Shown piece by piece: positions 13,490 to 23,827 of a stretch of DNA of 64,000 nt. The stretch lies in NCBI GenBank assembly GCA_963716425.1, contig OY970310.1, forward strand, positions 1,539,577-1,603,576, in the 5' to 3' direction. Both the position numbers and the translations under genes were made by a program. Source of the stretch: Candidatus Babeliales bacterium. Lineage in GTDB: Bacteria > Babelota > Babeliae > Babelales > JBFXEV01. Position 1 is the first letter of the stretch, and each line of letters opens with the position of its first letter. The notes under the pieces were generated by a model, which did no database searches, was not told where the DNA came from, and saw only the letters and a list, made by a program, of their open reading frames with translations.

Positions 13490-13840
13490 ACGAGAATAAC
13501 AATGTTTGAAATACTCATGGCACCCAGACGGCTTGGTGGCATGAGAGGTGATTTAAGATTTAAACATTGCCCTGTGGTTGAAATATTAGATCGTTTAACT
13601 TGTATAAATATTTTCTATCTGAAACAATTTTGCATGTTTTACCCAATTATGCTATACTTTTGATATGTTTTGGACAAAAAATGCAGATTTGGACGAGAGA
13701 ATTAGCCGTTTATATTGCTCCTCTTTCTCCTTAATGATATACTATCTTAAGCATATTTAGACCATACTTTGCCAAGTCCTCGTATGGCCAAACTATATAA
13801 AAAAATTAACGTTACAGATACTCAACGGAGATTACTAACC

Positions 13841-14104
13841 ATGCCAGTACCAAAACGAAAGCGCTCCCGGGCGCGTAGAGATTCCAGACACGCAAATTGG
13901 GGATTAGAAGTTACTTCATTTGCAACATGTGCTCAATGCAAAGAAGCAATAGCACCTCACACAGCTTGCAAACACTGTGGTTTTTATAAGGGCGTAAAAG
14001 TGCTTACTACTAAAGCTGATCGTGGATCAAAGCGACAAGTAGCACAAGCTGTCCTTGCAAGCAGACAACCGCAAGAGCAAACAGAGACTGAAGCATCAGA
14101 ATAA
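13841..14104 (+). CDS. rpmF: 50S ribosomal protein L32 with a C-terminal extension
   Basis: MPVPKRKRSRARRDSRHANW... with two CxxC pairs (CAQC, CKHC). The internal ATG at 13841 is taken as the start. Confidence 0.85.
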   Translation: MPVPKRKRSRARRDSRHANWGLEVTSFATCAQCKEAIAPHTACKHCGFYKGVKVLTTKADRGSKRQVAQAVLASRQPQEQTETEASE

Positions 14105-14306: not shown

Positions 14307-14990
14307 ATGAATATGACAAGCATTGACCAAATCTTCTCAGTTCAATATATCAAACGAACTATTGATCGTAATTCAAAATCATTTATAGTGGCTGGCTTAC
14401 TCTTGGCACTCCTTCTTGGTGGTTATTATTATTTCCGCGTGCATCGCAATGCACAAGATGCTCGTGCGACTGCAACACTTACTGAAGTGCTTGCAGAAGT
14501 TACACGAGCAGCACAAAAACCAGAAGCCTGGCAAGATGTAGAAATTGCAGCGCGTACTGCGTATCATCAAAATAGTAGTTCTGACTTGGCGCCTTACTTT
14601 TTGGCAATTGAAGCAGAAGCACTTTCAGAACAAGGTAAAGTTGATCAAGGCAGAGAACAGCTTACTTCCGTGGTTGCAATGCTACCTAAGAATCAACCGC
14701 TCTCCAGCCTTTATATGTTAAAGCTTGCTCGCATGCAACTTGCATCTTCTGATGAAGTTGTGCGCAAACAAGGTATGGAAATGCTGCAAGCATTAGCTCA
14801 AGACACTAAAGCGTTGGGACAAGATGAAGCGCTCTATCGACTTGGCAGAGTATATGCACAAGAAAAAAATAATGAAAAAGCACGCGAGACATTCAAGCAA
14901 CTAGTTGATGCATTTAAAGAATATAAAGATACACCTGGCGAATCTGCATGGGCATCACTTGCTCAAGAACAGCTTGATCATCTTGCTTAA
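14307..14990 (+). CDS. membrane-anchored TPR-like protein (YfgM-like)
   Basis: N-terminal TM (FIVAGLLLALLLGGYYYF) followed by a helical repeat region with LKLARMQL, similar in layout to E. coli YfgM. Confidence 0.45.
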   Translation: MNMTSIDQIFSVQYIKRTIDRNSKSFIVAGLLLALLLGGYYYFRVHRNAQDARATATLTEVLAEVTRAAQKPEAWQDVEIAARTAYHQNSSSDLAPYFLAIEAEALSEQGKVDQGREQLTSVVAMLPKNQPLSSLYMLKLARMQLASSDEVVRKQGMEMLQALAQDTKALGQDEALYRLGRVYAQEKNNEKARETFKQLVDAFKEYKDTPGESAWASLAQEQLDHLA

Positions 14991-15014: not shown

Positions 15015-16424
15015 ATGTCTGTTACAAAAAATAGTGATTCAGTGCGTGTGCGCTTTGCGCCATCACCAACCGGTCATTTGCATATTGGCGGTTTACGTAC
15101 TGCCCTATTCAACTTATTATTTGCACGTCATAATAATGGTAAGTTTTTACTCCGTATTGAAGATACTGATCGAGAACGTTCTAAAGAGGAATTTACTCAA
15201 GCTATTTTACAAGCCCTTGCCTGGACCGATATTCAACCAGATGAGCCGGTAGTCATTCAATCCGAGCGTATTGTGCATCATCAACGCATGATCAATGAGT
15301 TGCTTACCAAAGGTAAAGCGTATCGTTGTTATTGTCCGGTAGGACCAGAAGCTTCAAAAGAAACGTACTTAAAATATGATGGTGCTTGTAGAGCACAAAA
15401 ATATGATATGCCAGTTGAAGGCAAACCATTTGTAGTGCGTATAAAGCTGCCCCTGGAACAACAATCTATTACTTTCAATGACCTTATTCGCGGTCCAATT
15501 ACTATTGCGATGGAACAGTTTGATGATTTTATTATTGCTCGTTCCGATGGTGCTCCGGTATATAATTTTGTAGTAGTAGTTGATGACCATGATATGGCAA
15601 TTACGCACATTATTCGGGGAGAAGATCATATTCCCAATACCCCAAAACAAATTGTGCTGTATCAAGCATTTGGATGGCAACCGCCTCAATTTGCCCATCT
15701 GCCGCTTATTATGGGCGCATCAGGTGGACGGCTATCCAAGCGTGATGCTGCAACTTCGGTACTTGATTATCAAAAAAATGGTTATTTGCCGGAGGCTTTG
15801 TGCAATTATCTGGTACGGCTTGGTTGGTCGCATGGTGACCAAGAAATATTTACCCGCAAAGAGCTTGTTGAGTTATTTACATTAGAGGGCATTGGCAAAA
15901 GCAGTGCAGTATTTGATCAACAAAAATTAGATTCTATTAATGGTATCTACCTACGCAATACCGACAATGCAGTTTTGCTTGCATATATTCTTGCTTATAT
16001 AGAACCTGACGTTTATAAGCAGGTAATGCTCAGTGAGGAACAGATTATAGTTCTTATTGGTCTCTATAAAGAGCGAGTTACAACACTGAGACAATTAGTA
16101 GATGAAATAGTGCTGCTTGCAAAAGGCCCTGAAAAGCTTTCTGACGTTGACCGTGCGCAATGGATCTTACCCAAGACAGTGGGACTGCTAGCACAATTTA
16201 GTACCGACATTAATGCTGAACCACATTTTGATGCGCAACATTTGCAAGAAATTTGCAAAAAAATAGCTAAAACATATGATGTTAGCATGTCTGAAGTTGC
16301 TCAACCTATTCGACTTGCCATTTTGGGTAAAACGCAAAGCCCAGGCATATTTGACTTGCTTGCATTACTTGGCAAAAGAATAGCTGTCCAACGCTTACAG
16401 GAGTTTATTGTACAGATAGAATAG
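15015..16424 (+). CDS. gltX: glutamate--tRNA ligase
   Basis: RFAPSPTGHLHIGGLRTALFN (HIGH) and GGRLSKR (KMSKS-type). Confidence 0.9.
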   Translation: MSVTKNSDSVRVRFAPSPTGHLHIGGLRTALFNLLFARHNNGKFLLRIEDTDRERSKEEFTQAILQALAWTDIQPDEPVVIQSERIVHHQRMINELLTKGKAYRCYCPVGPEASKETYLKYDGACRAQKYDMPVEGKPFVVRIKLPLEQQSITFNDLIRGPITIAMEQFDDFIIARSDGAPVYNFVVVVDDHDMAITHIIRGEDHIPNTPKQIVLYQAFGWQPPQFAHLPLIMGASGGRLSKRDAATSVLDYQKNGYLPEALCNYLVRLGWSHGDQEIFTRKELVELFTLEGIGKSSAVFDQQKLDSINGIYLRNTDNAVLLAYILAYIEPDVYKQVMLSEEQIIVLIGLYKERVTTLRQLVDEIVLLAKGPEKLSDVDRAQWILPKTVGLLAQFSTDINAEPHFDAQHLQEICKKIAKTYDVSMSEVAQPIRLAILGKTQSPGIFDLLALLGKRIAVQRLQEFIVQIE

Positions 16425-16449: not shown

Positions 16450-17403
16450 ATGAAAGTAGGATTATTATTTCCTGATTTTGGGAGCCAACATGTTGGCATG
16501 GGTAAGGAACTATATGATTCTTCTCGCCTTATGCAAGAATATTTTGAAGAAGCAGGTAATTGTCTTAATACTAATTTTGTAAAATTATGCTTTGCATCAT
16601 CAGATGTTGAACTTGCTCGTATTGATCATGCCTATGCCTCTTTGTTTTTAATGAGTTCAGCCATTGGTTCTATAGTTGCTGAACAAGGTATCAAGCCAGT
16701 TGCTATTGCAGGTTTTGGACTTGGTGAATTTACGGCATTGCATTTTGCAGGATGCCTTAGTTTGCCAGACGGCCTTTATTTTCTTACTAAATATGCACAA
16801 CTTTATCAACATGTTCTTACAACTCAATCTCAGCGCTCTATGTTTATTGATAGCAGCGATATTCGTTCTCTCAAAAAATATTGTAAGGAAGAATCAACTC
16901 AGCATGAAATCGCAACCATTACTGCCTATATCACCAGTAAAGCTGCTTTTATTTCTGGTCATGCTCAAGCTGTAGAGCGCATAAAGCAACGTGTTAAAGA
17001 ATCATCAGAAGGGCGCTGTACCTATCTTTCTAGTCAAATGGGTATGCATTCGCTGGGTATGCAATCAGTAGCTGATGCACTTGATATGTATATAGAAAAA
17101 ATTGATATAAAAGACGCCCGAGTTCCTGTAATTGCTTGTGTAGATGGCATGGTTCGTCTTACTGGCGATTCACTCAGCGCTGCGTTATTGCAGCAGGTAA
17201 CAGCTCCAGTACGCTGGGATAAAATCATGATGCATGTGGCAGCTTGGGATGTTATCTTGGAGATAGGCCCAGGCAGCACGCTTACGAGTTTAATAAAGGC
17301 AGTATGGCCGACCAAACATATTTATACGATTAATAAACAGGCTGATATAGATGACGTAAGGTTAATTGTAGCAGCACAAAAACCAAATGAAGTGGGGTAT
17401 TAG
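16450..17403 (+). CDS. malonyl-CoA:ACP transacylase (FabD)-like protein with a degenerate active site
   Basis: Colinear with FabD (LLFPDFGSQHVGMG...GPG..L), but the nucleophile elbow reads GFGLGE (16711-16728) instead of GHSLGE. Confidence 0.7.
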   Translation: MKVGLLFPDFGSQHVGMGKELYDSSRLMQEYFEEAGNCLNTNFVKLCFASSDVELARIDHAYASLFLMSSAIGSIVAEQGIKPVAIAGFGLGEFTALHFAGCLSLPDGLYFLTKYAQLYQHVLTTQSQRSMFIDSSDIRSLKKYCKEESTQHEIATITAYITSKAAFISGHAQAVERIKQRVKESSEGRCTYLSSQMGMHSLGMQSVADALDMYIEKIDIKDARVPVIACVDGMVRLTGDSLSAALLQQVTAPVRWDKIMMHVAAWDVILEIGPGSTLTSLIKAVWPTKHIYTINKQADIDDVRLIVAAQKPNEVGY

Positions 17404-17405
17404 CT

Positions 17406-17657
17406 ATGGCCTTAACGCGCCAAGAAATAACACAAAAAGTGATTGGGATTATAGCAGACGTTCTCAAGGTTGATCCAAAAACGATAACTATGGATAGCTC
17501 TTTTGAAGCATTGGGGGCAGATTCTCTTGATATGATGGAGCTGATTATGAAGATAGAAGATGCTTTTGATGTGACTATTCCTGATGAAGCAACGGTTAAT
17601 ATTACTACTGTAGGTCAAGCGGTAGATGCTCTTATGAATCTAAAAAAAGATCATTAA
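17406..17657 (+). CDS. acpP: acyl carrier protein
   Basis: LGADSLDMMELIMKIEDAFDVTIPDE, with the DSL phosphopantetheine attachment motif. Confidence 0.85.
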   Translation: MALTRQEITQKVIGIIADVLKVDPKTITMDSSFEALGADSLDMMELIMKIEDAFDVTIPDEATVNITTVGQAVDALMNLKKDH

Positions 17658-17667
17658 AAAAACTAGT

Positions 17668-17702
17668 GTTCCCCGGAACTTCAATAAGAAGTTCGGGGGA
17701 AC
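17668..17702. terminator. hairpin between convergent genes (bidirectional terminator candidate)
   Basis: gttccccggaacttc / gaagttcgggggaac, a 15 bp stem. Confidence 0.6.
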
Positions 17703-17728: not shown

Positions 17729-18079
17729 TTAGTAGTTGCGAGCGTTTTTTGCGCCATTAGTGAAATCGTGCTGATTTGCTTCTTCTTCAGATGCAAATGT
17801 AGCGCAATTTGGTGGGCAAACCCAGTGGCAACGAACAATCTTTTGTTCTGTGCAAACCTTACGAGGTACGCCACAAACGATTGTCTTACAAACTGGTTTT
17901 TCTTCGCATTCTACCATGTCAGGCAACTTGTTCATTTCACAAGCTACTTCGCATTGTACTGGACATGGTGCTGCTACTCTTGGTTGTTCGTCGCATGAAC
18001 GACGACCACAGTGACGAGCTTCTGCTTCAACTGAAGCGAGGAGTGCAAGTACTGCTACTAGTGATAAAAGCTTTTTCAT
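17729..18079 (-). CDS. small secreted cysteine-rich protein
   Basis: Leader MKKLLSLVAVLALLASVEAEA, then 12 Cys in about 94 residues. Confidence 0.6.
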   Translation of the reverse strand: MKKLLSLVAVLALLASVEAEARHCGRRSCDEQPRVAAPCPVQCEVACEMNKLPDMVECEEKPVCKTIVCGVPRKVCTEQKIVRCHWVCPPNCATFASEEEANQHDFTNGAKNARNY

Positions 18080-18851: not shown

Positions 18852-20363
18852 CTATGCATATGAAAAACCTGCTTTTAGCCAAATAGTTCCCTGCTCGAGA
18901 GCTCTATTTGATATAGCGGAGAATTCTATAGAAGCACCAATACCCACAAATGGCTCTAGCGGATTATCACTCCAGAACTTGCTTGCATGCAAGAAAAGGG
19001 TATAAGAAACTGCAAGCGGATTTGCTGCAGAACGAAGATTGATATCTGCGGGAGTTAAAAATACGGTAAATGGATCATCAAAAAGATTGGCATTTTCGCC
19101 ATTAATACGCGTTGCACTTGCAGTTTGCGGTGTATTGCTGTCTGTGTTCCCTTGTATACCATAGATGCCTAGGGGCACAGCTCCGTCTCTGAGCGATATC
19201 CTTTCTCTTGAGCGTAGCCATGCATCAAGCCCAACGTTAAACTGCCAAGAACCCCAATCATAAGTGCCCATTATGGTGCCTTCCACTTCAGCACTTACTT
19301 TTACATTACAGTCGAGCGTAGTCACGCGGGGACCAAAAAGAATTTCTCCCGAGGCTGTGCCATCAGGGTTAAATCGTTTAAATAATAAGTATCTGCTACC
19401 AATACCATTACCGATAATATCAAAAGTGCGTCTTTGATGAGCACTAAATAAATAATAGTACCGTATATCAAATACCACATTCATGGCAGTATCTGCTTTG
19501 TCAAATACTTCATGAAAGCCATGGATGCCACCACCGAGTCCATTATGCTTGCCATTGCCTACTTGAGCATTAAAGAAGAAATGTGGTTCAATCCGTTTGC
19601 CAACAGGAGCAATATAATTGAGCTGTAGATCAATTTCCCAATCTGGTCTGCAAATAACTTCATAGCCAAGAGTAAGATACAGATCAGCAAGCCCAACTTC
19701 AGTGCGATGACCTTCAACAGTGGCAAATCTCATATCCTCAGTGACAGCAGGAAACACATTCTCATTAATCGTATCACCAACCCATGCGCGTAGTATTGAT
19801 TTCAAAAATGAATCAGCTGGCGCTGGATTTCCTAGTTTATCTGCATCTACGTTAGTACCGGCAGAAATAAACCGTTCACGCATTCTAAGATTCCAGCGGG
19901 ACCAGGTGATAGGAATATACGCTTCAAAATATAATCCTCTTGCGAATCTATTTAAGCTTATACGCGCTTGCATTTCAAGAACCATATTTTGGACAATTGG
20001 TTCAATAATCACGCTGCCTTGAAAATCATCATTGAGTAGAAAGTTCCGTGCAAATACGTCGGTACTTGGATCATTCAAGTTACCAAACATCATAGTATCA
20101 GTACCATTGAAAAATAAATATTGTTCAAGATTCCCATTCGAGAATGATTCAGAATAGGCTGGTGTAATACCAAAATAAAAGCAAGGAAATCCGGTAGTTT
20201 TATCACAGAAGTCATAGGGCTCCATGCCTACCCAATGGCGCGGATTATTAAGTCCTTGTGAGCGCATGGTAAATTGAGAACGCCCCGTAACGGCTTCTAA
20301 GTAGCTATTAAAACAAAAGACAATGCCCAAAATTATGAGTATGTTGGTCCGTTGTGCAAACAT
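18852..20363 (-). CDS. outer-membrane-type protein, family paralogue 1 (most diverged)
   Basis: ATG at 20363 with an AAGGAG RBS and leader MFAQRTNILIILGIVFCFNSYLEA. Shares GIGSRYLLFKRFN, GLADL..TLGY and the C-terminal ..EFSA..NRA...G.IWLKAGFSYA with the other four copies. Confidence 0.7.
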   Translation of the reverse strand: MFAQRTNILIILGIVFCFNSYLEAVTGRSQFTMRSQGLNNPRHWVGMEPYDFCDKTTGFPCFYFGITPAYSESFSNGNLEQYLFFNGTDTMMFGNLNDPSTDVFARNFLLNDDFQGSVIIEPIVQNMVLEMQARISLNRFARGLYFEAYIPITWSRWNLRMRERFISAGTNVDADKLGNPAPADSFLKSILRAWVGDTINENVFPAVTEDMRFATVEGHRTEVGLADLYLTLGYEVICRPDWEIDLQLNYIAPVGKRIEPHFFFNAQVGNGKHNGLGGGIHGFHEVFDKADTAMNVVFDIRYYYLFSAHQRRTFDIIGNGIGSRYLLFKRFNPDGTASGEILFGPRVTTLDCNVKVSAEVEGTIMGTYDWGSWQFNVGLDAWLRSRERISLRDGAVPLGIYGIQGNTDSNTPQTASATRINGENANLFDDPFTVFLTPADINLRSAANPLAVSYTLFLHASKFWSDNPLEPFVGIGASIEFSAISNRALEQGTIWLKAGFSYA

Positions 20364-20391
20364 GAGTACTATCTCTCCTTTAAACTTTTTA

Positions 20392-22107
20392 TTACGAATA
20401 CGCAAATCCTAACTTGCCCCAGATGCCCCATTGATCAAACGCATTGTTGCGTATGCCCGAGAATTCTACTTCACCACCAACTCCCATAAAGAAATCAAAG
20501 TTGCAACCTTCAAAGGTATAGCCAAGATGGGCAAAGAATTTATTGGTCAGAGCAGAAGGCGCTTCTGCAGCCCTTGCATCAAGATCATTGGTAGTAATAA
20601 ACACCGGTACTGCAGGACCAAGTACAGGGCCATCACCTAGAGCTGTACTATTGGTTCCATTAATGGTTACGGTGCTGTTGGTGCGATTTGCTGGAAGATT
20701 AGGATTAATCCCACCCGTTGGCAAGAAATTATCAATTGGTGTGCCGCCTAACAGTCCATACGTGTTTGGCGGAATGTGTCTAATGATTGTGATGCCTTCT
20801 CTGCTGCGGCCCCAAAGGTTATAGCCAATGTCAAGTGTGATATCGCACCATTGATAATCAAATATTAATACAAATTCGCCCATAACTTTAATTTTTACAT
20901 CAGCAGGAAGCGTTGTTACGTTTGGTCCTGGCACCAAAGTATCGGTAAAGTTTCCTGCGGCATTAAATTGTTTGAATAAAAGGTATCTGCTTCCAATGCC
21001 ATTTTTCTTTAAATCGAAAGTACGCACCTGTTTATTTTTGAGCAAACTATACACAACACCATCCGCCCAAAGACTAATCGAATGATCGCCACAGCCACAT
21101 GCGTCCCACAGCATAACGTGAGCCGACATGCCAGCACCAATTCCTACATGGTGTCCATTACCTACTATTGGTTCAAAAACAAATTCACCTTTTGGCGTAT
21201 TACCAGTTGGTGCCGTTACGCGAAATTCGAGCCCTAAATGTCCATTCTCGGTGCAAATATAATTTCTGCCAAGAACAAATTTAACATCTGCAATGCCGTG
21301 CTTTTTTTGCCTGCCGTTAATTTTGGCAAAACGCATAGGATCAATGGTGATGGCTTCCGTAAGATCTCCTGGCGGAGTTTCATTTGTGCTTACGAAATTG
21401 AGAACTCCATCTATTTCTCCCCTCCATGCTGCAATAATAGTATCCACTGGTGCAGGCGCGATAAATGGACTATTTCCTGCGGAAGCTGCATTAATGCTAA
21501 TGTTGCCGGGTTGTTCAGCGTCAAACTCTTCTAAATTCATGTTCCATCGCGTCCATACAACAGGAGCACCCACTTCAAAGTAGAGACCACAATTTACTGT
21601 TTCTAAATTAAGCCGCGCATTAAAATCAAGAATTAAGTTGGTAACTTTGGGTTTCAACTCAACACGTCCGGAAAATGTACTTGGAAGTAAAAAGTTTTCT
21701 GCAAGTACGTCTGTGTTTTCCGGGCTATAGGCAGGGTTAGTTGCCAAACTTCCCCTGAAGCGCATTATATTTGTTTTCGGTGGTCGTACATTTTCTATGG
21801 ATTCACAATCACAAAAATCAATTGGCCTACGGAATGAAAAATAGCGACCAATCGCGTCAGGATTAAACGTTTCCGTCCATTCTGGTGTTATTGAGAAAAC
21901 AAGGCCGTTATCACAATCCCGGCAGGCGTAAAGTTCTTGTAATTCACCCACAAGCCTGCGTGCAAGGTTATCACCTTGTGATCTGGCTGCAAAAAATGGT
22001 TTGCCATAGGTTTCTCTTTTTCCAAAAGGAGTTCTTTCCATTGCCGTTATACTCAATGTGAGAGTGAGCATGGTGCAAAGAAGAAGTTGTTGCATATGTT
22101 TGTTCAT
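20392..22107 (-). CDS. outer-membrane-type protein, family paralogue 2
   Basis: Leader plus YGKPFFAARSQGDNLARRLVGE, ENFLLPSTFSG, FEPIVGNGHH, GIGSRYLLFKQFN and a C-terminal WGIWGKLGFAYS. Confidence 0.75.
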   Translation of the reverse strand: MNKHMQQLLLCTMLTLTLSITAMERTPFGKRETYGKPFFAARSQGDNLARRLVGELQELYACRDCDNGLVFSITPEWTETFNPDAIGRYFSFRRPIDFCDCESIENVRPPKTNIMRFRGSLATNPAYSPENTDVLAENFLLPSTFSGRVELKPKVTNLILDFNARLNLETVNCGLYFEVGAPVVWTRWNMNLEEFDAEQPGNISINAASAGNSPFIAPAPVDTIIAAWRGEIDGVLNFVSTNETPPGDLTEAITIDPMRFAKINGRQKKHGIADVKFVLGRNYICTENGHLGLEFRVTAPTGNTPKGEFVFEPIVGNGHHVGIGAGMSAHVMLWDACGCGDHSISLWADGVVYSLLKNKQVRTFDLKKNGIGSRYLLFKQFNAAGNFTDTLVPGPNVTTLPADVKIKVMGEFVLIFDYQWCDITLDIGYNLWGRSREGITIIRHIPPNTYGLLGGTPIDNFLPTGGINPNLPANRTNSTVTINGTNSTALGDGPVLGPAVPVFITTNDLDARAAEAPSALTNKFFAHLGYTFEGCNFDFFMGVGGEVEFSGIRNNAFDQWGIWGKLGFAYS

Positions 22108-22201
22108 TGAGTTCCTTTATTTATAAACTTTTTTTATTCGCCGTCGCCTTCTCCCGAAAGCTATGGCGCACACGCCGTAGCTCCATAGGAGCAAAGGCGG
22201 A

Positions 22202-23827
22202 TTAAAAGAATGCCAACCCCACTTTGCCCCATATTCCCCACTGGGTGAGCGCATTATTTTCTTTTCCTGAAAATTCCACTTGACCACCAGCTCCAATAAA
22301 TGGTGTGCAATGTTTTCGCGGCCACGCATAACAAACATGTGCAAAGAGCATATGTGATAATGCAGCGGGAGATTCAGCACTTGCCACATCAATATTGTTG
22401 TTTGAGATGAAGCTTGGGCTGGGCGTATCAAATTCTTGGTTAGTAGCAGATATAAAATTTTCTCCGTTGATGAGCACTTGGCTGTTGGTGCGATTTGCAG
22501 CCCCAGGAATAAGATTATCAATTGGCGTGCCGCCCCAAATACCAAAAGTTGCTTGTTCAATTTCTTGGGTCAGTTTAATTTTCTCTTTTTCTCTTCCCCA
22601 TGCACTATACCCAAAATCGATGGTTAATCCTTTACGTTGATAATCGACAAGAAGCACTGCTTGGCCAATAAGACCTATGCCCACTTTTGCATCAAGCGTG
22701 GTTATGTTTGGGCCTGGCACAAAACGATTTGCAAAATTGCCGGCTTCATTAAATTGCTTGAAGAGTAAATATCTGCTACCAACACCATTATTAAGTAAAT
22801 CAAATGTTCTTCTTTGTTTTGTATTGAATGCATAATACAATGCACTATCAAACCAAATACTCCATGAACGGTCGCATCCGTTACTCCAGACTTTGCCGTG
22901 AGCACTCAAGCCACCACCAATTTGAAGATGATGACCACCACCAATAATGGGCTCAAACATATACACTGCTTCTGGACGGTTGCCCGTAGGCACGGTGACT
23001 CGTATATTAAAATCAAGATGATATTTTGGTTTGCATAACACGTTGTACCCCAGCACCAATTCAATATCTGCAACACCAGATTTTGTCTTTTTTCCATCAA
23101 TCAGACCAAATCTCATATTTTCTATGCCAATTGCGATCGGCGCCACACCGGGAGCGGTAAAGGTAAATTCTTGGGTAACATGTGCTCCGGTGAATGCTTC
23201 AGTAATTGTGGTAAAGGGTGCAGTAGTTACATATGGTCCCTTAATAGGATTATTAGAAGCAAGAATTGCAATATCTGTTCCTGCAAAGGCGGGTGTTTCT
23301 TCGTGGAGTGCAACATGTGAACGAGTCCAGGCAATGGGTAGGCCAACTTCTACATAAAGACCAGGTAATCGATTATATAAATTGAGCCGAAAGTTAATGT
23401 CGGTAATAAAGTTTTCTATATGGGGAAATAGAGTGACCGCGCCGGAAAAGGTGCTTGGGAGCAAAAAATTTTCAGCAAGAATATCCGTGTTTGTAGGGCT
23501 AAATGGAGGATTTTGCGCCATGCTCCCCCTAAAAGTCATGGTATTAGATTCGTTATTGAAACCATTATGAATAGAAAAATAATTGCCAAGCCTGTTTCGG
23601 TGGAAATTTTGGCTCCATTCTGGGGTAATTGAGAAGATACCATTTTTATGTTTTGAACCGCAATGGAGCAGTTCATTTACTTCCCCCACGAGCCTACGTG
23701 CTAAATTGTTTCCTTGGCTTCTACTTGCAAAAAATGGTTTGCCAAATGTACATTCAGTGTTTGGAATGTGCGCAAAAAGTGCATGTATTATATAAAATAG
23801 GACATATCTTTTTTTGAGTTGGTTCAT
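22202..23827 (-). CDS. outer-membrane-type protein, family paralogue 3
   Basis: The same conserved blocks; the C-terminus is WGIWGKVGLAFF. Confidence 0.75.
   Translation of the reverse strand: MNQLKKRYVLFYIIHALFAHIPNTECTFGKPFFASRSQGNNLARRLVGEVNELLHCGSKHKNGIFSITPEWSQNFHRNRLGNYFSIHNGFNNESNTMTFRGSMAQNPPFSPTNTDILAENFLLPSTFSGAVTLFPHIENFITDINFRLNLYNRLPGLYVEVGLPIAWTRSHVALHEETPAFAGTDIAILASNNPIKGPYVTTAPFTTITEAFTGAHVTQEFTFTAPGVAPIAIGIENMRFGLIDGKKTKSGVADIELVLGYNVLCKPKYHLDFNIRVTVPTGNRPEAVYMFEPIIGGGHHLQIGGGLSAHGKVWSNGCDRSWSIWFDSALYYAFNTKQRRTFDLLNNGVGSRYLLFKQFNEAGNFANRFVPGPNITTLDAKVGIGLIGQAVLLVDYQRKGLTIDFGYSAWGREKEKIKLTQEIEQATFGIWGGTPIDNLIPGAANRTNSQVLINGENFISATNQEFDTPSPSFISNNNIDVASAESPAALSHMLFAHVCYAWPRKHCTPFIGAGGQVEFSGKENNALTQWGIWGKVGLAFF

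What the first reader, a model, noticed from the sequence alone, without database searches (positions are those of the whole stretch)
16450..17657. FabD-like protein lacking the catalytic Ser (GFGLGE instead of GHSLGE) directly upstream of an intact acpP
The 317 aa protein is colinear with malonyl-CoA:ACP transacylase, but key residues (E. coli numbering) are changed:
- The nucleophile elbow is G-F-G-L-G-E (nt 16711-16728), so Ser92 is Gly and His91 is Phe.
- The GQGSQ oxyanion and Gln11 region reads DFGSQ.
- The position aligned with the malonyl-binding Arg117 is Tyr (..LTKYAQLY..).
- The His201-equivalent (QMGMHS) appears to be retained.

The downstream ACP keeps its DSL attachment site and starts 3 nt after the FabD-like stop. 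No other fab genes are in the window.

This suggests either a pseudoenzyme or ACP-binding scaffold, or a repurposed acyltransferase fold in an organism with a reduced lipid pathway.
Basis: partly seen in the sequence, partly recalled or inferred. Interest (0 to 1): 0.55.

Follow-up and report, generated by a model that had tools for sequence, protein, structure and literature searches.

The report
Catalytically dead FabD kept beside ACP
An amoeba-type intracellular parasite (order Babeliales, phylum Dependentiae) that cannot make fatty acids keeps, under strong selection, a copy of the fatty-acid enzyme FabD with its active site rebuilt from tyrosines and no catalytic serine, so the gene databases call "ACP S-malonyltransferase" must have another, still unknown job.

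Summary
The 317-aa ORF (16450-17403) has the complete FabD fold (AF2 pLDDT 95.5; TM 0.91-0.94 to E. coli FabD), with Ser92->Gly, His91->Phe, Gln11->Phe, Arg117->Tyr and His201 kept.

It is not a private defect. All 120 nearest homologues lack the Ser, as do 87 of 89 standalone representative clusters. The variant ("FabD*") forms one clade arising from canonical Dependentiae FabD.

Of 151 Dependentiae genomes, 24 have canonical Ser-FabD, and all 21 genomes with a condensing enzyme are among them. 106 have FabD* and no condensing enzyme. 21 have neither form of FabD.

This genome has no FabH/F/G/Z/I, ACC, PlsX or PlsY. It keeps ACP (DSL), AcpS, one fatty-acid ligase and one PlsC.

FabD* is under purifying selection (dN/dS 0.08-0.24), but its ACP/CoA-docking residues have decayed. 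It persists in one family with Ser-less ACP and no AcpS, and in another with no ACP, AcpS, ligase or PlsC. It has been deleted from genomes that keep holo-ACP.

Verdict: a conserved pseudoenzyme, not an ACP acyltransferase. Its job is unknown, possibly as a phosphopantetheine-independent partner of ACP.

The scan reached the same core reading on two other Dependentiae genomes. No held paper describes it.

The parts
16450..17403 (+). FabD* : Ser-less, Arg-less FabD-fold protein (317 aa), a catalytically dead orthologue of malonyl-CoA:ACP transacylase
   Evidence: ORF. PF00698 78 bits and TIGR00128 168.6 bits, below the 260.9 cut-off. Residue mapping to 1mla. AF2 pLDDT 95.5. Foldseek TM 0.91-0.94 to E. 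coli FabD. Member of a single derived clade, SH-aLRT 100. dN/dS 0.115 against its congener G138.
16711..16728 (+). Former nucleophile elbow, G-F-G-L-G-E in place of G-H-S-L-G-E (Ser92->Gly90, His91->Phe89)
   Evidence: Across 146 variant sequences position 92 is G69/N64/D11 and position 91 is Y106/F20/H11.
17406..17657 (+). acpP: acyl carrier protein (83 aa) with an intact DSL phosphopantetheine-attachment site, translationally coupled to FabD*
   Evidence: TIGR00517 79.4 bits vs 70.45 and PF00550 63 bits. It is the only PP-binding hit in the genome. AcpS is present elsewhere in the genome.
17668..17702 (.). 15-bp inverted repeat with one mismatch directly after acpP; probable end of the transcription unit, facing a convergent gene
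   Evidence: Read from the sequence. The consensus terminator scan did not call it because there is no T-run.
15015..16424 (+). gltX (glutamyl-tRNA synthetase), immediately upstream (25-nt gap); conserved neighbour across the order
   Evidence: ORF. Gene cluster c1 is present in 30 of 33 sampled loci in the order TPR-gltX-FabD*-ACP.
14307..14990 (+). TPR_21 (YfgM-like) membrane-anchored TPR protein; first gene of the conserved TPR-gltX-FabD*-acpP block
   Evidence: PF09976 33.5 bits. Synteny.
13769..14104 (+). rpmF (ribosomal protein L32): marks the block as a remnant of the classic rpmF-plsX-fab cluster. plsX lies between rpmF and TPR in relatives but is missing here
   Evidence: PF01783 71 bits. 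plsX (PF02504, 300 bits) sits at this position in families f2, f3 (some genomes), f12, f15 and f18. No PlsX in this genome.

Best explanation
FabD* is a pseudoenzyme. It descends vertically from the canonical FabD of Dependentiae. On one ancestral branch it lost the Ser nucleophile, the malonyl-carboxylate clamp (Arg117), Gln11, Gln63 and Met121. These were replaced by a cluster of Tyr/Phe side chains that re-lines or fills the old active-site gorge. It then let its CoA/ACP-docking residues drift. It no longer transfers malonyl or other acyl groups to ACP. It is nevertheless kept under purifying selection in most Babeliales that discarded fatty acid synthesis, so it has a second job that needs no thioester chemistry. 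That much is shown or strongly inferred. In this genome the neighbouring ACP is still a real holo-carrier. With AcpS, one FadD/AasS-type ligase and one PlsC/Aas-type acyltransferase it most likely feeds scavenged host fatty acids into phospholipid. That module is evolutionarily separable from FabD*. The inferred and least certain step is what FabD* does. The most likely answer is that it binds ACP (the apo form suffices) as a non-catalytic partner or scaffold, through a surface other than the catalytic docking site. The conserved N-terminal half and the Tyr-lined gorge would be the functional core.
For: Catalytic loss: residue mapping and fold. Clade-wide: all 120 nearest homologues lack the Ser, as do 87 of 89 standalone representative clusters. 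Vertical descent: FabD* shares many lineage-specific residues with 24 canonical Dependentiae FabDs (K19, R26, Q29, C38, N42, C47-F-A-S-S51, Y110, K114, Y214, K217), and it forms one clade with SH-aLRT 100 on a 0.88 substitutions/site stem. Pocket re-lining: Q11->Y 132/146, Q63->Y 139/146, M121->Y 138/146, R117->Y/F 135/146, H91->Y/F/H 137/146. Docking decay: at the AcpP-contact residues defined in bioRxiv 10.1101/2020.05.15.098798, canonical proteins keep K190 24/24, K283 23/24 and R/K287 24/24. FabD* has K190 39/146 and A/E/Q at 287. Net charge at the docking positions falls from +3.25 to +0.97. Selection: dN/dS 0.08 (unsaturated pair) to 0.24, similar to gltX (0.07-0.16) and ACP. No substrate or pathway in this genome: no KAS, FabH, FabZ/A, PlsX, PlsY or ACC carboxyltransferase, and no FabG/FabI among 3 SDRs. 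Phyletic pattern in 151 genomes: all 21 genomes with KAS carry a canonical Ser-FabD, and the 106 FabD* genomes have none. Independence from thioester chemistry: family f5 has FabD* 12/13, AcpS 0/13, ligase 0/13, and an ACP that lost its Ser in 11/11 sampled. Family f6 has FabD* 12/12 but ACP, AcpS, ligase and PlsC all 0/12. The pocket is fully conserved in f5, f6 and f8. Separability: 21 genomes have lost FabD*. In most sampled loci the deletion between gltX and acpP is clean, and all 8 sampled ACPs keep the DSL site; AcpS, ligase and PlsC remain in most of these genomes. ACP link: the two genes are adjacent in about 50 inspected genomes. Ser-less ACPs stay under purifying selection (dN/dS 0.24-0.40) in f5 genomes where FabD* is the only other ACP-related gene found. 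In f6, where ACP is gone, FabD* carries a conserved C-terminal tail of net charge -14 to -20.
Against: No biochemical data exist. Loss of activity is inferred from residues, not measured. The oxyanion hole is made of backbone amides and could survive. The canonical ACP-docking surface is not conserved, so any ACP binding must use another surface. FabD*-ACP rate covariation (partial r 0.22, p about 0.06) is no stronger than for control pairs. FabD* exists without ACP (f6) and ACP without FabD* (about 19 of the 21 FabD*-less genomes; ACP 9/9 in the FabD*-less f9 genomes, f12 2/2), so the partnership, if real, is dispensable. All loss events of the ACP serine fall in FabD*-bearing lineages, but these make up about 85% of FASII-less genomes, so that association is not statistically meaningful. 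No FabD*-ACP fusion was found. The strongly conserved Tyr set plus His201 could equally mark a new ligand site.
Confidence: 0.6

Rival explanations
1. New ligand-binding or enzymatic function in the re-lined gorge, unrelated to ACP. The conserved Tyr11/Tyr63/Tyr117/Tyr121 set with His201 and Gly199 would form a new pocket, for example an aromatic cage for a cationic or polar host metabolite, used for sensing, sequestration or a direct-transfer reaction.
For: Positions 11, 63 and 121 switched to one new residue kept in 90-95% of sequences, rather than drifting, and A199->G is 99% conserved. The pocket is fully conserved in f5/f6/f8, where no carrier thiol exists. The CoA/ACP docking residues decayed. 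FabD* persists without ACP in f6.
Against: A buried aromatic cluster that merely fills the cavity would be conserved just as well. His201 is kept in only 60 of 89 representative clusters, and positions 91 and 92 vary (G/N/D). No ligand is suggested by gene context. The tools give no model coordinates, so pocket volume could not be checked.
Confidence: 0.2
2. Moonlighting structural role in a larger assembly, as for human MCAT, which is a mitoribosomal small-subunit assembly factor. The FabD fold would be kept as an assembly factor or chaperone, with ACP or the acidic tail as a modulator.
For: Human MCAT sits in mtSSU assembly intermediates and sequesters rRNA h31 (PDB 8csp appeared; PMC9892005). 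FabD* lies in a conserved block with rpmF and gltX. Two f10 genomes keep a canonical Ser-FabD plus ACP with no KAS found, which hints at a FASII-independent value of FabD before the active site was lost.
Against: FabD* is as acidic as canonical FabD (median pI 5.0 for both), so there is no sign of a new RNA-binding surface. The rpmF neighbourhood is simply the ancestral rpmF-plsX-fab cluster. There is no direct evidence of any kind.
Confidence: 0.08
3. Repurposed acyltransferase. FabD* would load scavenged long-chain (descarboxy) acyl groups from acyl-CoA onto ACP by direct His-assisted transthioesterification, feeding PlsC.
For: His201 is kept in this genome. Arg117 is replaced by a hydrophobic residue, and R117A FabD accepts descarboxy-CoAs according to work cited in bioRxiv 10.1101/2020.05.15.098798. 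The gene is translationally coupled to a holo-type ACP. The genome has a ligase and a PlsC.
Against: There is no nucleophile, and CoA and ACP use the same channel, which argues against a ternary complex. The CoA/ACP docking residues decayed. FabD* is retained in f5/f6 without AcpS, an ACP serine or a ligase; PlsC is 0/12 in f6 and 4/13 in f5. FabD* is deleted in genomes that keep ligase, AcpS, holo-ACP and PlsC. His201 is lost in a third of representative clusters.
Confidence: 0.07
4. Functionless relic: a decaying leftover of the fab cluster that has not yet been deleted.
For: It has been deleted several times independently (f9, f12, f3). The pocket and His201 degrade in f9, the family with most losses. 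Variant tips are longer than canonical ones.
Against: The ORF is intact in 106 of 151 genomes across 11 families. dN/dS is 0.08-0.24, comparable to gltX. There are 26 invariant columns in 120 sequences. The AF2 model is very confident.
Confidence: 0.03

Closest known systems
FabD / MCAT, malonyl-CoA:ACP transacylase (E. coli FabD, PDB 1MLA, 2G1H, 6U0J; NCBIfam TIGR00128; EC 2.3.1.39)
   Same: Same two-subdomain fold (TM 0.91-0.94, rmsd 1.7 A). Direct vertical descent from the canonical FabD of the same phylum. Same genomic position, in a remnant of the rpmF-plsX-fab cluster next to acpP. His201 is retained in this genome.
   Different: No Ser92 nucleophile, no Arg117 clamp, no Gln11, Gln63 or Met121. 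The ACP/CoA-docking basic residues are not conserved. It scores below the family cut-off. There is no malonyl-CoA source and no downstream FASII enzymes. It persists in genomes lacking ACP and AcpS.
Human mitochondrial MCAT as mitoribosomal small-subunit assembly factor (PDB 8CSP-8CSS; PMC9892005)
   Same: A FabD-fold protein with a structural role that does not involve acyl transfer. It shows that the fold can be retained for a second job.
   Different: Human MCAT keeps its catalytic residues and its enzymatic role. No evidence links FabD* to ribosomes, and FabD* shows no shift towards a basic surface.
ACP with FASII-independent binding roles (Plasmodium apicoplast ACP stabilising pyruvate kinase II, PMC13574338)
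   Same: The carrier protein is retained, and is essential, as a binding partner when fatty acid synthesis is dispensable. This parallels ACP retention in FASII-less Dependentiae and the Ser-less ACPs of families f5, f8 and f14.
   Different: The Plasmodium role needs the phosphopantetheine group and AcpS. The f5 ACPs have no attachment serine and no AcpS was found. The partner there is a kinase, not a FabD relative.
Inactive AT-like domains of trans-AT polyketide synthases, and other pseudoenzymes of the acyltransferase fold
   Same: An acyltransferase fold without the catalytic serine, kept for a non-catalytic (docking or structural) role.
   Different: Those are domains embedded in megasynthases. 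FabD* is a standalone protein in genomes where no ketosynthase was found, so there is no PKS or FAS context, and it descends from housekeeping FabD. This comparison is recalled from general knowledge and was not tested here.

Membership tests
FabD / malonyl-CoA:ACP transacylase (TIGR00128) | Two-subdomain fold: alpha/beta-hydrolase-like core plus ferredoxin-like small subdomain | tested here: met
   AF2 pLDDT 95.5. Foldseek TM 0.91-0.94, rmsd 1.7 A over 307 columns to 2g1h/1mla.
FabD / malonyl-CoA:ACP transacylase (TIGR00128) | GHSxG nucleophile elbow with catalytic Ser92 | tested here: not met
   The elbow reads G-F-G-L-G-E, so Gly90 aligns with Ser92. The near gap-free structural superposition supports the mapping.
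FabD / malonyl-CoA:ACP transacylase (TIGR00128) | Arg117, bidentate clamp for the malonyl carboxylate | tested here: not met
   Tyr115 aligns with Arg117. Clade-wide the position is Y108/F27/L6 of 146.
FabD / malonyl-CoA:ACP transacylase (TIGR00128) | Gln11 of the GQGSQ motif (and Gln63) contacting the substrate | tested here: not met
   Phe10 and Tyr62 in this protein. Clade-wide Y132/146 and Y139/146. The oxyanion hole itself is made of backbone amides and could not be assessed.
FabD / malonyl-CoA:ACP transacylase (TIGR00128) | His201 of the Ser-His dyad | tested here: met
   His200 is present here. It is kept in 135/146 close relatives but only 60/89 representative clusters.
FabD / malonyl-CoA:ACP transacylase (TIGR00128) | Score above the curated family cut-off | tested here: not met
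   168.6 bits vs 260.9. Canonical Dependentiae FabDs score 225-288 bits and variants 78-194 bits.
FabD / malonyl-CoA:ACP transacylase (TIGR00128) | Conserved basic/hydrophobic ACP- and CoA-docking residues (K189/R190, L192, K279, K286/R287) | tested here: not met
   This protein keeps R at 190 and K at 286 but has T192, S279 and A287. Clade-wide these columns are relaxed and net charge falls from +3.25 to +0.97.
FabD / malonyl-CoA:ACP transacylase (TIGR00128) | Pathway context: malonyl-CoA supply (ACC) and FASII partners (FabH/F/G/Z/I) | tested here: not met
   None found in the 1.865-Mb, 93.7%-complete genome.
FabD / malonyl-CoA:ACP transacylase (TIGR00128) | Malonyl transfer activity | not testable with these tools
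   Needs an in vitro assay or fabD(ts) complementation.
Pseudoenzyme (catalytically dead homologue kept by selection) | Descent from an active enzyme, loss of catalytic residues, and purifying selection on the remainder | tested here: met
   Descent. Residue loss. dN/dS 0.08-0.24 and 0.13-0.35 in f5.
Acyl carrier protein AcpP (TIGR00517), for the downstream gene | Score above cut-off, DSL attachment serine, and a phosphopantetheinyl transferase in the genome | tested here: met
   79.4 vs 70.45 bits and a DSL site (sequence). AcpS at G000:C1:982667-983059.
Malonate decarboxylase subunit MdcH (TIGR03131) | Score above cut-off | tested here: not met
   109 bits vs 297.9.

The most novel reading that the evidence does not exclude
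FabD* and the ACP next to it are a pseudoenzyme/(pseudo)carrier pair, exapted from fatty acid synthesis into a thioester-free cellular role such as an assembly factor, a regulator or a ligand sensor built on the tyrosine-lined gorge. Nature has already run the dissecting experiments. In f5 the ACP has lost its attachment serine and no AcpS was found. In f6 the ACP is gone and FabD* has a conserved, highly acidic C-terminal tail that may stand in for it. In f9 and f12 FabD* is deleted and holo-ACP is kept.
Probability: 0.3. Interest if true: 0.75.

Novelty: new variant of a known kind. Interest (0 to 1): 0.6.

Why it matters
First, annotation. Hundreds of Dependentiae proteins are labelled "ACP S-malonyltransferase" in public databases although they cannot perform that reaction. 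Metabolic reconstructions of this phylum have treated the gene as an unexplained orphan enzyme (PMC4378268).

Second, biology. FabD is a textbook housekeeping enzyme, and a conserved, catalytically dead orthologue has not been described in the papers I could search. It shows that both FabD and ACP can outlive fatty acid synthesis, and it cleanly separates two roles of ACP. One is a holo, AcpS- and ligase-linked carrier role. The other is independent of phosphopantetheine.

Third, tractability. A few Dependentiae are in amoeba co-culture, and the natural series makes the second function directly testable. The series runs from canonical FabD, to FabD* with holo-ACP, to FabD* with Ser-less ACP, to FabD* with an acidic tail, and to ACP alone.

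Tried and rejected
Neighbourhoods were taken from genome handles instead.
- Private pseudogene or sequencing error: rejected, because the substitutions are clade-wide. Earlier scan notes report frameshifts elsewhere in this window, but this ORF is intact and matches its relatives throughout.
- New nucleophile at invariant Cys38/Cys47: rejected, because both are equally invariant in canonical Ser-containing Dependentiae FabDs.
- FabD*-ACP rate covariation (mirror-tree, 15 genomes): partial r 0.22 against 0.23 and 0.29 for control pairs. Inconclusive.
- Rosetta-stone fusions: none among longer proteins (the tool itself calls this weak evidence). None of about 400 aa among the best 150 representatives.
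- Basic-surface shift expected for an RNA-binding role: not seen.
- Association between loss of the ACP serine and presence of FabD*: all events fall in FabD*-bearing lineages, but these are about 85% of FASII-less genomes, so I do not count it as evidence.
- Divergent FabD* missed in the 21 negative genomes: a FabD*-specific profile gave the same 130/151.
- Organism identity: the Noda2021 isolate is 1.22 Mb, not this genome. The organism is left at order level.
- The careful IQ-TREE search did not finish. The quick LG+C20 tree was used.
- Pocket geometry could not be examined because the tools return no model coordinates. A FabD*-ACP complex could not be modelled.
Full report
**1. The observation**

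The window holds a 317-aa ORF at 16450-17403 (+) and an 83-aa ORF at 17406-17657 (+). The first matches the acyltransferase fold (PF00698, 78 bits). It also matches the FabD equivalog model TIGR00128, but at 168.6 bits, well under that model's 260.9-bit cut-off. The second is a bona fide ACP (TIGR00517, 79.4 vs 70.45 bits) with the DSL attachment site.

- Ser92 -> Gly90
- His91 -> Phe89
- Gln11 -> Phe10
- Arg117 -> Tyr115
- His201 retained as His200

An AlphaFold2 model built on 120 relatives is very confident (pLDDT 95.5, pTM 0.93). It superposes on E. coli FabD at TM 0.91-0.94 and 1.7 A rmsd over 307 columns.

The FabD-like stop (TAG, 17401-17403) is followed two bases later by the acpP start. 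A 15-bp hairpin follows acpP.

**2. Whose genome, and what else it has**

The closest named homologues are from Dependentiae/Babeliales (TM6). Earlier scan notes on this genome say the same.

The genome is one 1.865-Mb contig of 93.7% estimated completeness. Six-frame HMM searches found the following.

| Component | Result in this genome |
|---|---|
| Second FabD | none |
| Second carrier protein | none |
| Ketoacyl synthase | none |
| FabH | none |
| FabA/FabZ | none |
| PlsX | none |
| PlsY | none |
| ACC carboxyltransferase | none |
| FabG/FabI | none; three generic SDRs, best FabG model 87 vs 298 bits |
| AcpS | present |
| FadD/AasS-type long-chain fatty-acid ligase (515 aa) | one |
| PlsC/Aas-type acyltransferase (243 aa) | one |

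There is therefore no malonyl-CoA source and no use for malonyl-ACP. What remains looks like a minimal kit for attaching scavenged fatty acids to lipid. This fits published statements that TM6 lack fatty acid synthesis (PMC4776705; PMC6561590). The Babela massiliensis paper explicitly lists its FabD as an enzyme of unclear purpose (PMC4378268).

**3. The change is clade-wide and has one origin**

All 120 best homologues (38-94% identity) lack the serine. The elbow reads AG-[Y/F/H]-[G/N/D]-x-G-E, with Tyr/Phe at positions 11 and 117. An exhaustive profile search found the same in 87 of 89 standalone representative clusters.

In a sample of 151 Dependentiae genomes:
- 130 have a FabD-family gene.
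- 24 of these score at least 225 bits and read FPGQG-Q / AGHS-GE / KKR / GAFHS. They belong to families f7, f10, f11, f13, f16 and f17 (anonymous labels of the survey tool).
- All 21 genomes with a ketoacyl synthase are among those 24.
- The other 106 score 78-194 bits and have no KAS. Every one inspected is Ser-less.
- A FabD*-specific profile gives the same 130/151, so the 21 negatives are not an artefact of the canonical model.

FabD* shares dozens of lineage-specific residues with the canonical Dependentiae proteins, including Cys38 and Cys47, which are therefore not new nucleophiles. It forms a single clade with SH-aLRT 100 on a long stem of 0.88 substitutions per site. It is thus the orthologue of FabD, remodelled once.

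**4. What was remodelled**

Canonical (n=24) and variant (n=146) columns compare as follows:
- Positions 11, 63 and 121 switch to Tyr in 90-95% of sequences.
- Position 117 becomes Tyr/Phe (92%).
- Position 91 becomes Tyr/Phe/His.
- Position 92 becomes Gly/Asn/Asp.
- Ala199 becomes Gly (99%).
- His201 is kept in 135/146 close relatives, but in only 60/89 clusters when each cluster counts once.

The residues that contact AcpP and CoA in the crosslinked E. coli structure are K189/R190, L192, I136, K279, K286 and R287 (bioRxiv 10.1101/2020.05.15.098798). They are conserved in canonical Dependentiae FabD and relaxed in FabD*. Net charge at the docking positions drops from +3.25 to +0.97.

Constraint is now concentrated in residues 1-123 (conservation 0.74, against 0.84 in canonical proteins). 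The small subdomain is loose (0.42 against 0.69).

**5. It is under selection**

FabD* dN/dS is 0.08 in the one unsaturated pair and 0.12-0.24 in four others. That is comparable to gltX (0.07-0.16) and ACP (0.04-0.25), and lower than for the adjacent TPR gene. The alignment of 120 sequences has 26 invariant columns.

**6. Natural experiments separate FabD* from acyl chemistry**

The gene sits in a conserved block: gyrA-dprA-rpmF-(plsX)-TPR-gltX-FabD*-acpP. Surveys of ACP, AcpS, the ligase and PlsC across the same 151 genomes gave the following.

| Family | FabD* | ACP | AcpS | Ligase | PlsC |
|---|---|---|---|---|---|
| f5 | 12/13 | 11/13 | 0/13 | 0/13 | 4/13 |
| f6 | 12/12 | 0/12 | 0/12 | 0/12 | 0/12 |

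- **f5:** the ACP beside FabD* has lost the attachment serine in all 11 sampled (DEL, DEF, DWL, DQF, DYL). It is still under purifying selection, with dN/dS 0.24-0.40.
- **f6:** FabD* carries a conserved acidic C-terminal tail (net charge -14 to -20, motif ADL-x-NE-x-P-x-D-[FY]-D).
- **f8 and f14:** the small ACP lost its serine in 5/7 and 2/3 sampled genomes. Each of these genomes shows a single strong ligase hit, which in the six whose coordinates were listed is an ~830-aa ligase-carrier-acyltransferase fusion encoded next to AcpS.
- **Pocket conservation:** the re-lined pocket is fully conserved in f5, f6 and f8.
- **FabD* losses:** 21 genomes (f9 9/20, f12 2/2, f3 7/55, and others) have lost FabD*. 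In most sampled loci this is a clean deletion between gltX and acpP, and all eight sampled ACPs keep the DSL site. AcpS, the ligase and PlsC are still present in most of these genomes.

Two conclusions follow. The carrier module (ligase, AcpS, holo-ACP, PlsC) does not need FabD*. FabD* does not need phosphopantetheine chemistry.

**7. What it most likely does**

Shown or strongly inferred: FabD* is a pseudoenzyme, not an ACP acyltransferase.

Inferred: it has a second, non-catalytic role. I favour a phosphopantetheine-independent partnership with ACP, for three reasons.
- The two genes are adjacent, and here translationally coupled, in about 50 inspected genomes.
- Ser-less ACPs persist in f5 genomes where FabD* is the only other ACP-related gene found.
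- An acidic tail appears on FabD* where ACP is gone.

Against this, the catalytic docking surface has decayed. Rate covariation with ACP is no better than for control pairs. No fusion was found. Each gene can also exist without the other.

A new ligand site in the tyrosine-lined gorge is a serious rival. An MCAT-like assembly-factor role has a real precedent (PMC9892005) but no support here. A repurposed long-chain transacylase and a functionless relic are both disfavoured by sections 5 and 6.

Two f10 genomes keep a canonical Ser-FabD plus ACP with no KAS found. This hints that FabD had a FASII-independent value before its active site was lost.

**8. Novelty**

The held literature notes only an unexplained orphan FabD in Babela (PMC4378268). 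No paper found links Dependentiae to a Ser-less FabD.

This scan reached the same core reading on two other Dependentiae genomes (e1-2615002 and e1-3015436). Those are AI notes, not independent evidence.

I class it as a new variant of a known kind: FabD turned pseudoenzyme.

Noticed in passing
not in the window; e.g. G019:C12:19465-22146, G064:C57:865-3534, G103:C75:2630-5283 (genome handles of the genome search): An ~830-aa triple fusion of AMP-dependent fatty-acid ligase, carrier (PP-binding) domain and PlsC-type acyltransferase. In the f8 and f14 genomes whose coordinates were listed it is encoded next to AcpS. The fusion also occurs in f7, f11, f13 and f16. It would be a self-contained machine for acylating lysolipids with scavenged fatty acids. 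Each f8/f14 genome shows a single strong ligase hit, which was this fusion wherever coordinates were listed.
   Followed up: partly
L055, L080-L087, L099, L100 (f5); L058, L092, L094-L096 (f8); L097, L098 (f14): Small ACPs that keep the fold and the acidic helix II but have lost the phosphopantetheine-attachment serine (DSL -> DEL, DEF, DWL, DQF, DYL, DDL, DVL, DLL). They remain under purifying selection (dN/dS 0.24-0.40 in f5), so they act as apo-only 'pseudo-carrier' proteins.
   Followed up: yes
L056, L057, L078, L089 (family f6); also database proteins P0209 and P0224: FabD* proteins of about 360-372 aa with a conserved, very acidic C-terminal tail (motif ADL-x-NE-x-P-x-D-[FY]-D followed by D/E runs; net charge -14 to -20). 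In f6 they occur in genomes where no ACP was found. For P0209 and P0224 only the acidic tail was seen.
   Followed up: partly
L077 (G028) and L065 (G111), family f10: A canonical Ser/Arg/Gln/His FabD next to, or one gene away from, an ACP with DSL, in genomes where no ketoacyl synthase was found and with no fabG or fabF in the locus. This may be an earlier stage of FabD retention after loss of fatty acid synthesis.
   Followed up: partly
window 18852-23827 (-): Three tandem paralogous genes (517, 571 and 541 aa) with no Pfam match. Homologues sit in the same position downstream of acpP in 24 of the 33 loci sampled across Babeliales. They look like outer-membrane or porin-type proteins, but this was not tested.
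   Followed up: partly
window 17729-18079 (-): A small cysteine-rich protein (116 aa) with a signal peptide, convergent with acpP and with no Pfam match. Homologues occupy the same position in families f1, f2 and f18.
   Followed up: no
L048:8944-10002 and the equivalent position in L049-L051, L063, L064, L066, L071, L072, L074: plsX (PF02504, 300 bits) lies between rpmF and the TPR gene in families f2, f3 (some genomes), f12, f15 and f18, but is missing from this genome and from f4, f5, f6 and f9. The route for loading ACP therefore probably differs between Babeliales lineages.
   Followed up: partly
G086:C1:557124-557963 and G086:C1:1057841-1058617: One f3 genome carries two FabD* copies. 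The first is next to acpP and the second lies elsewhere on the chromosome.
   Followed up: no
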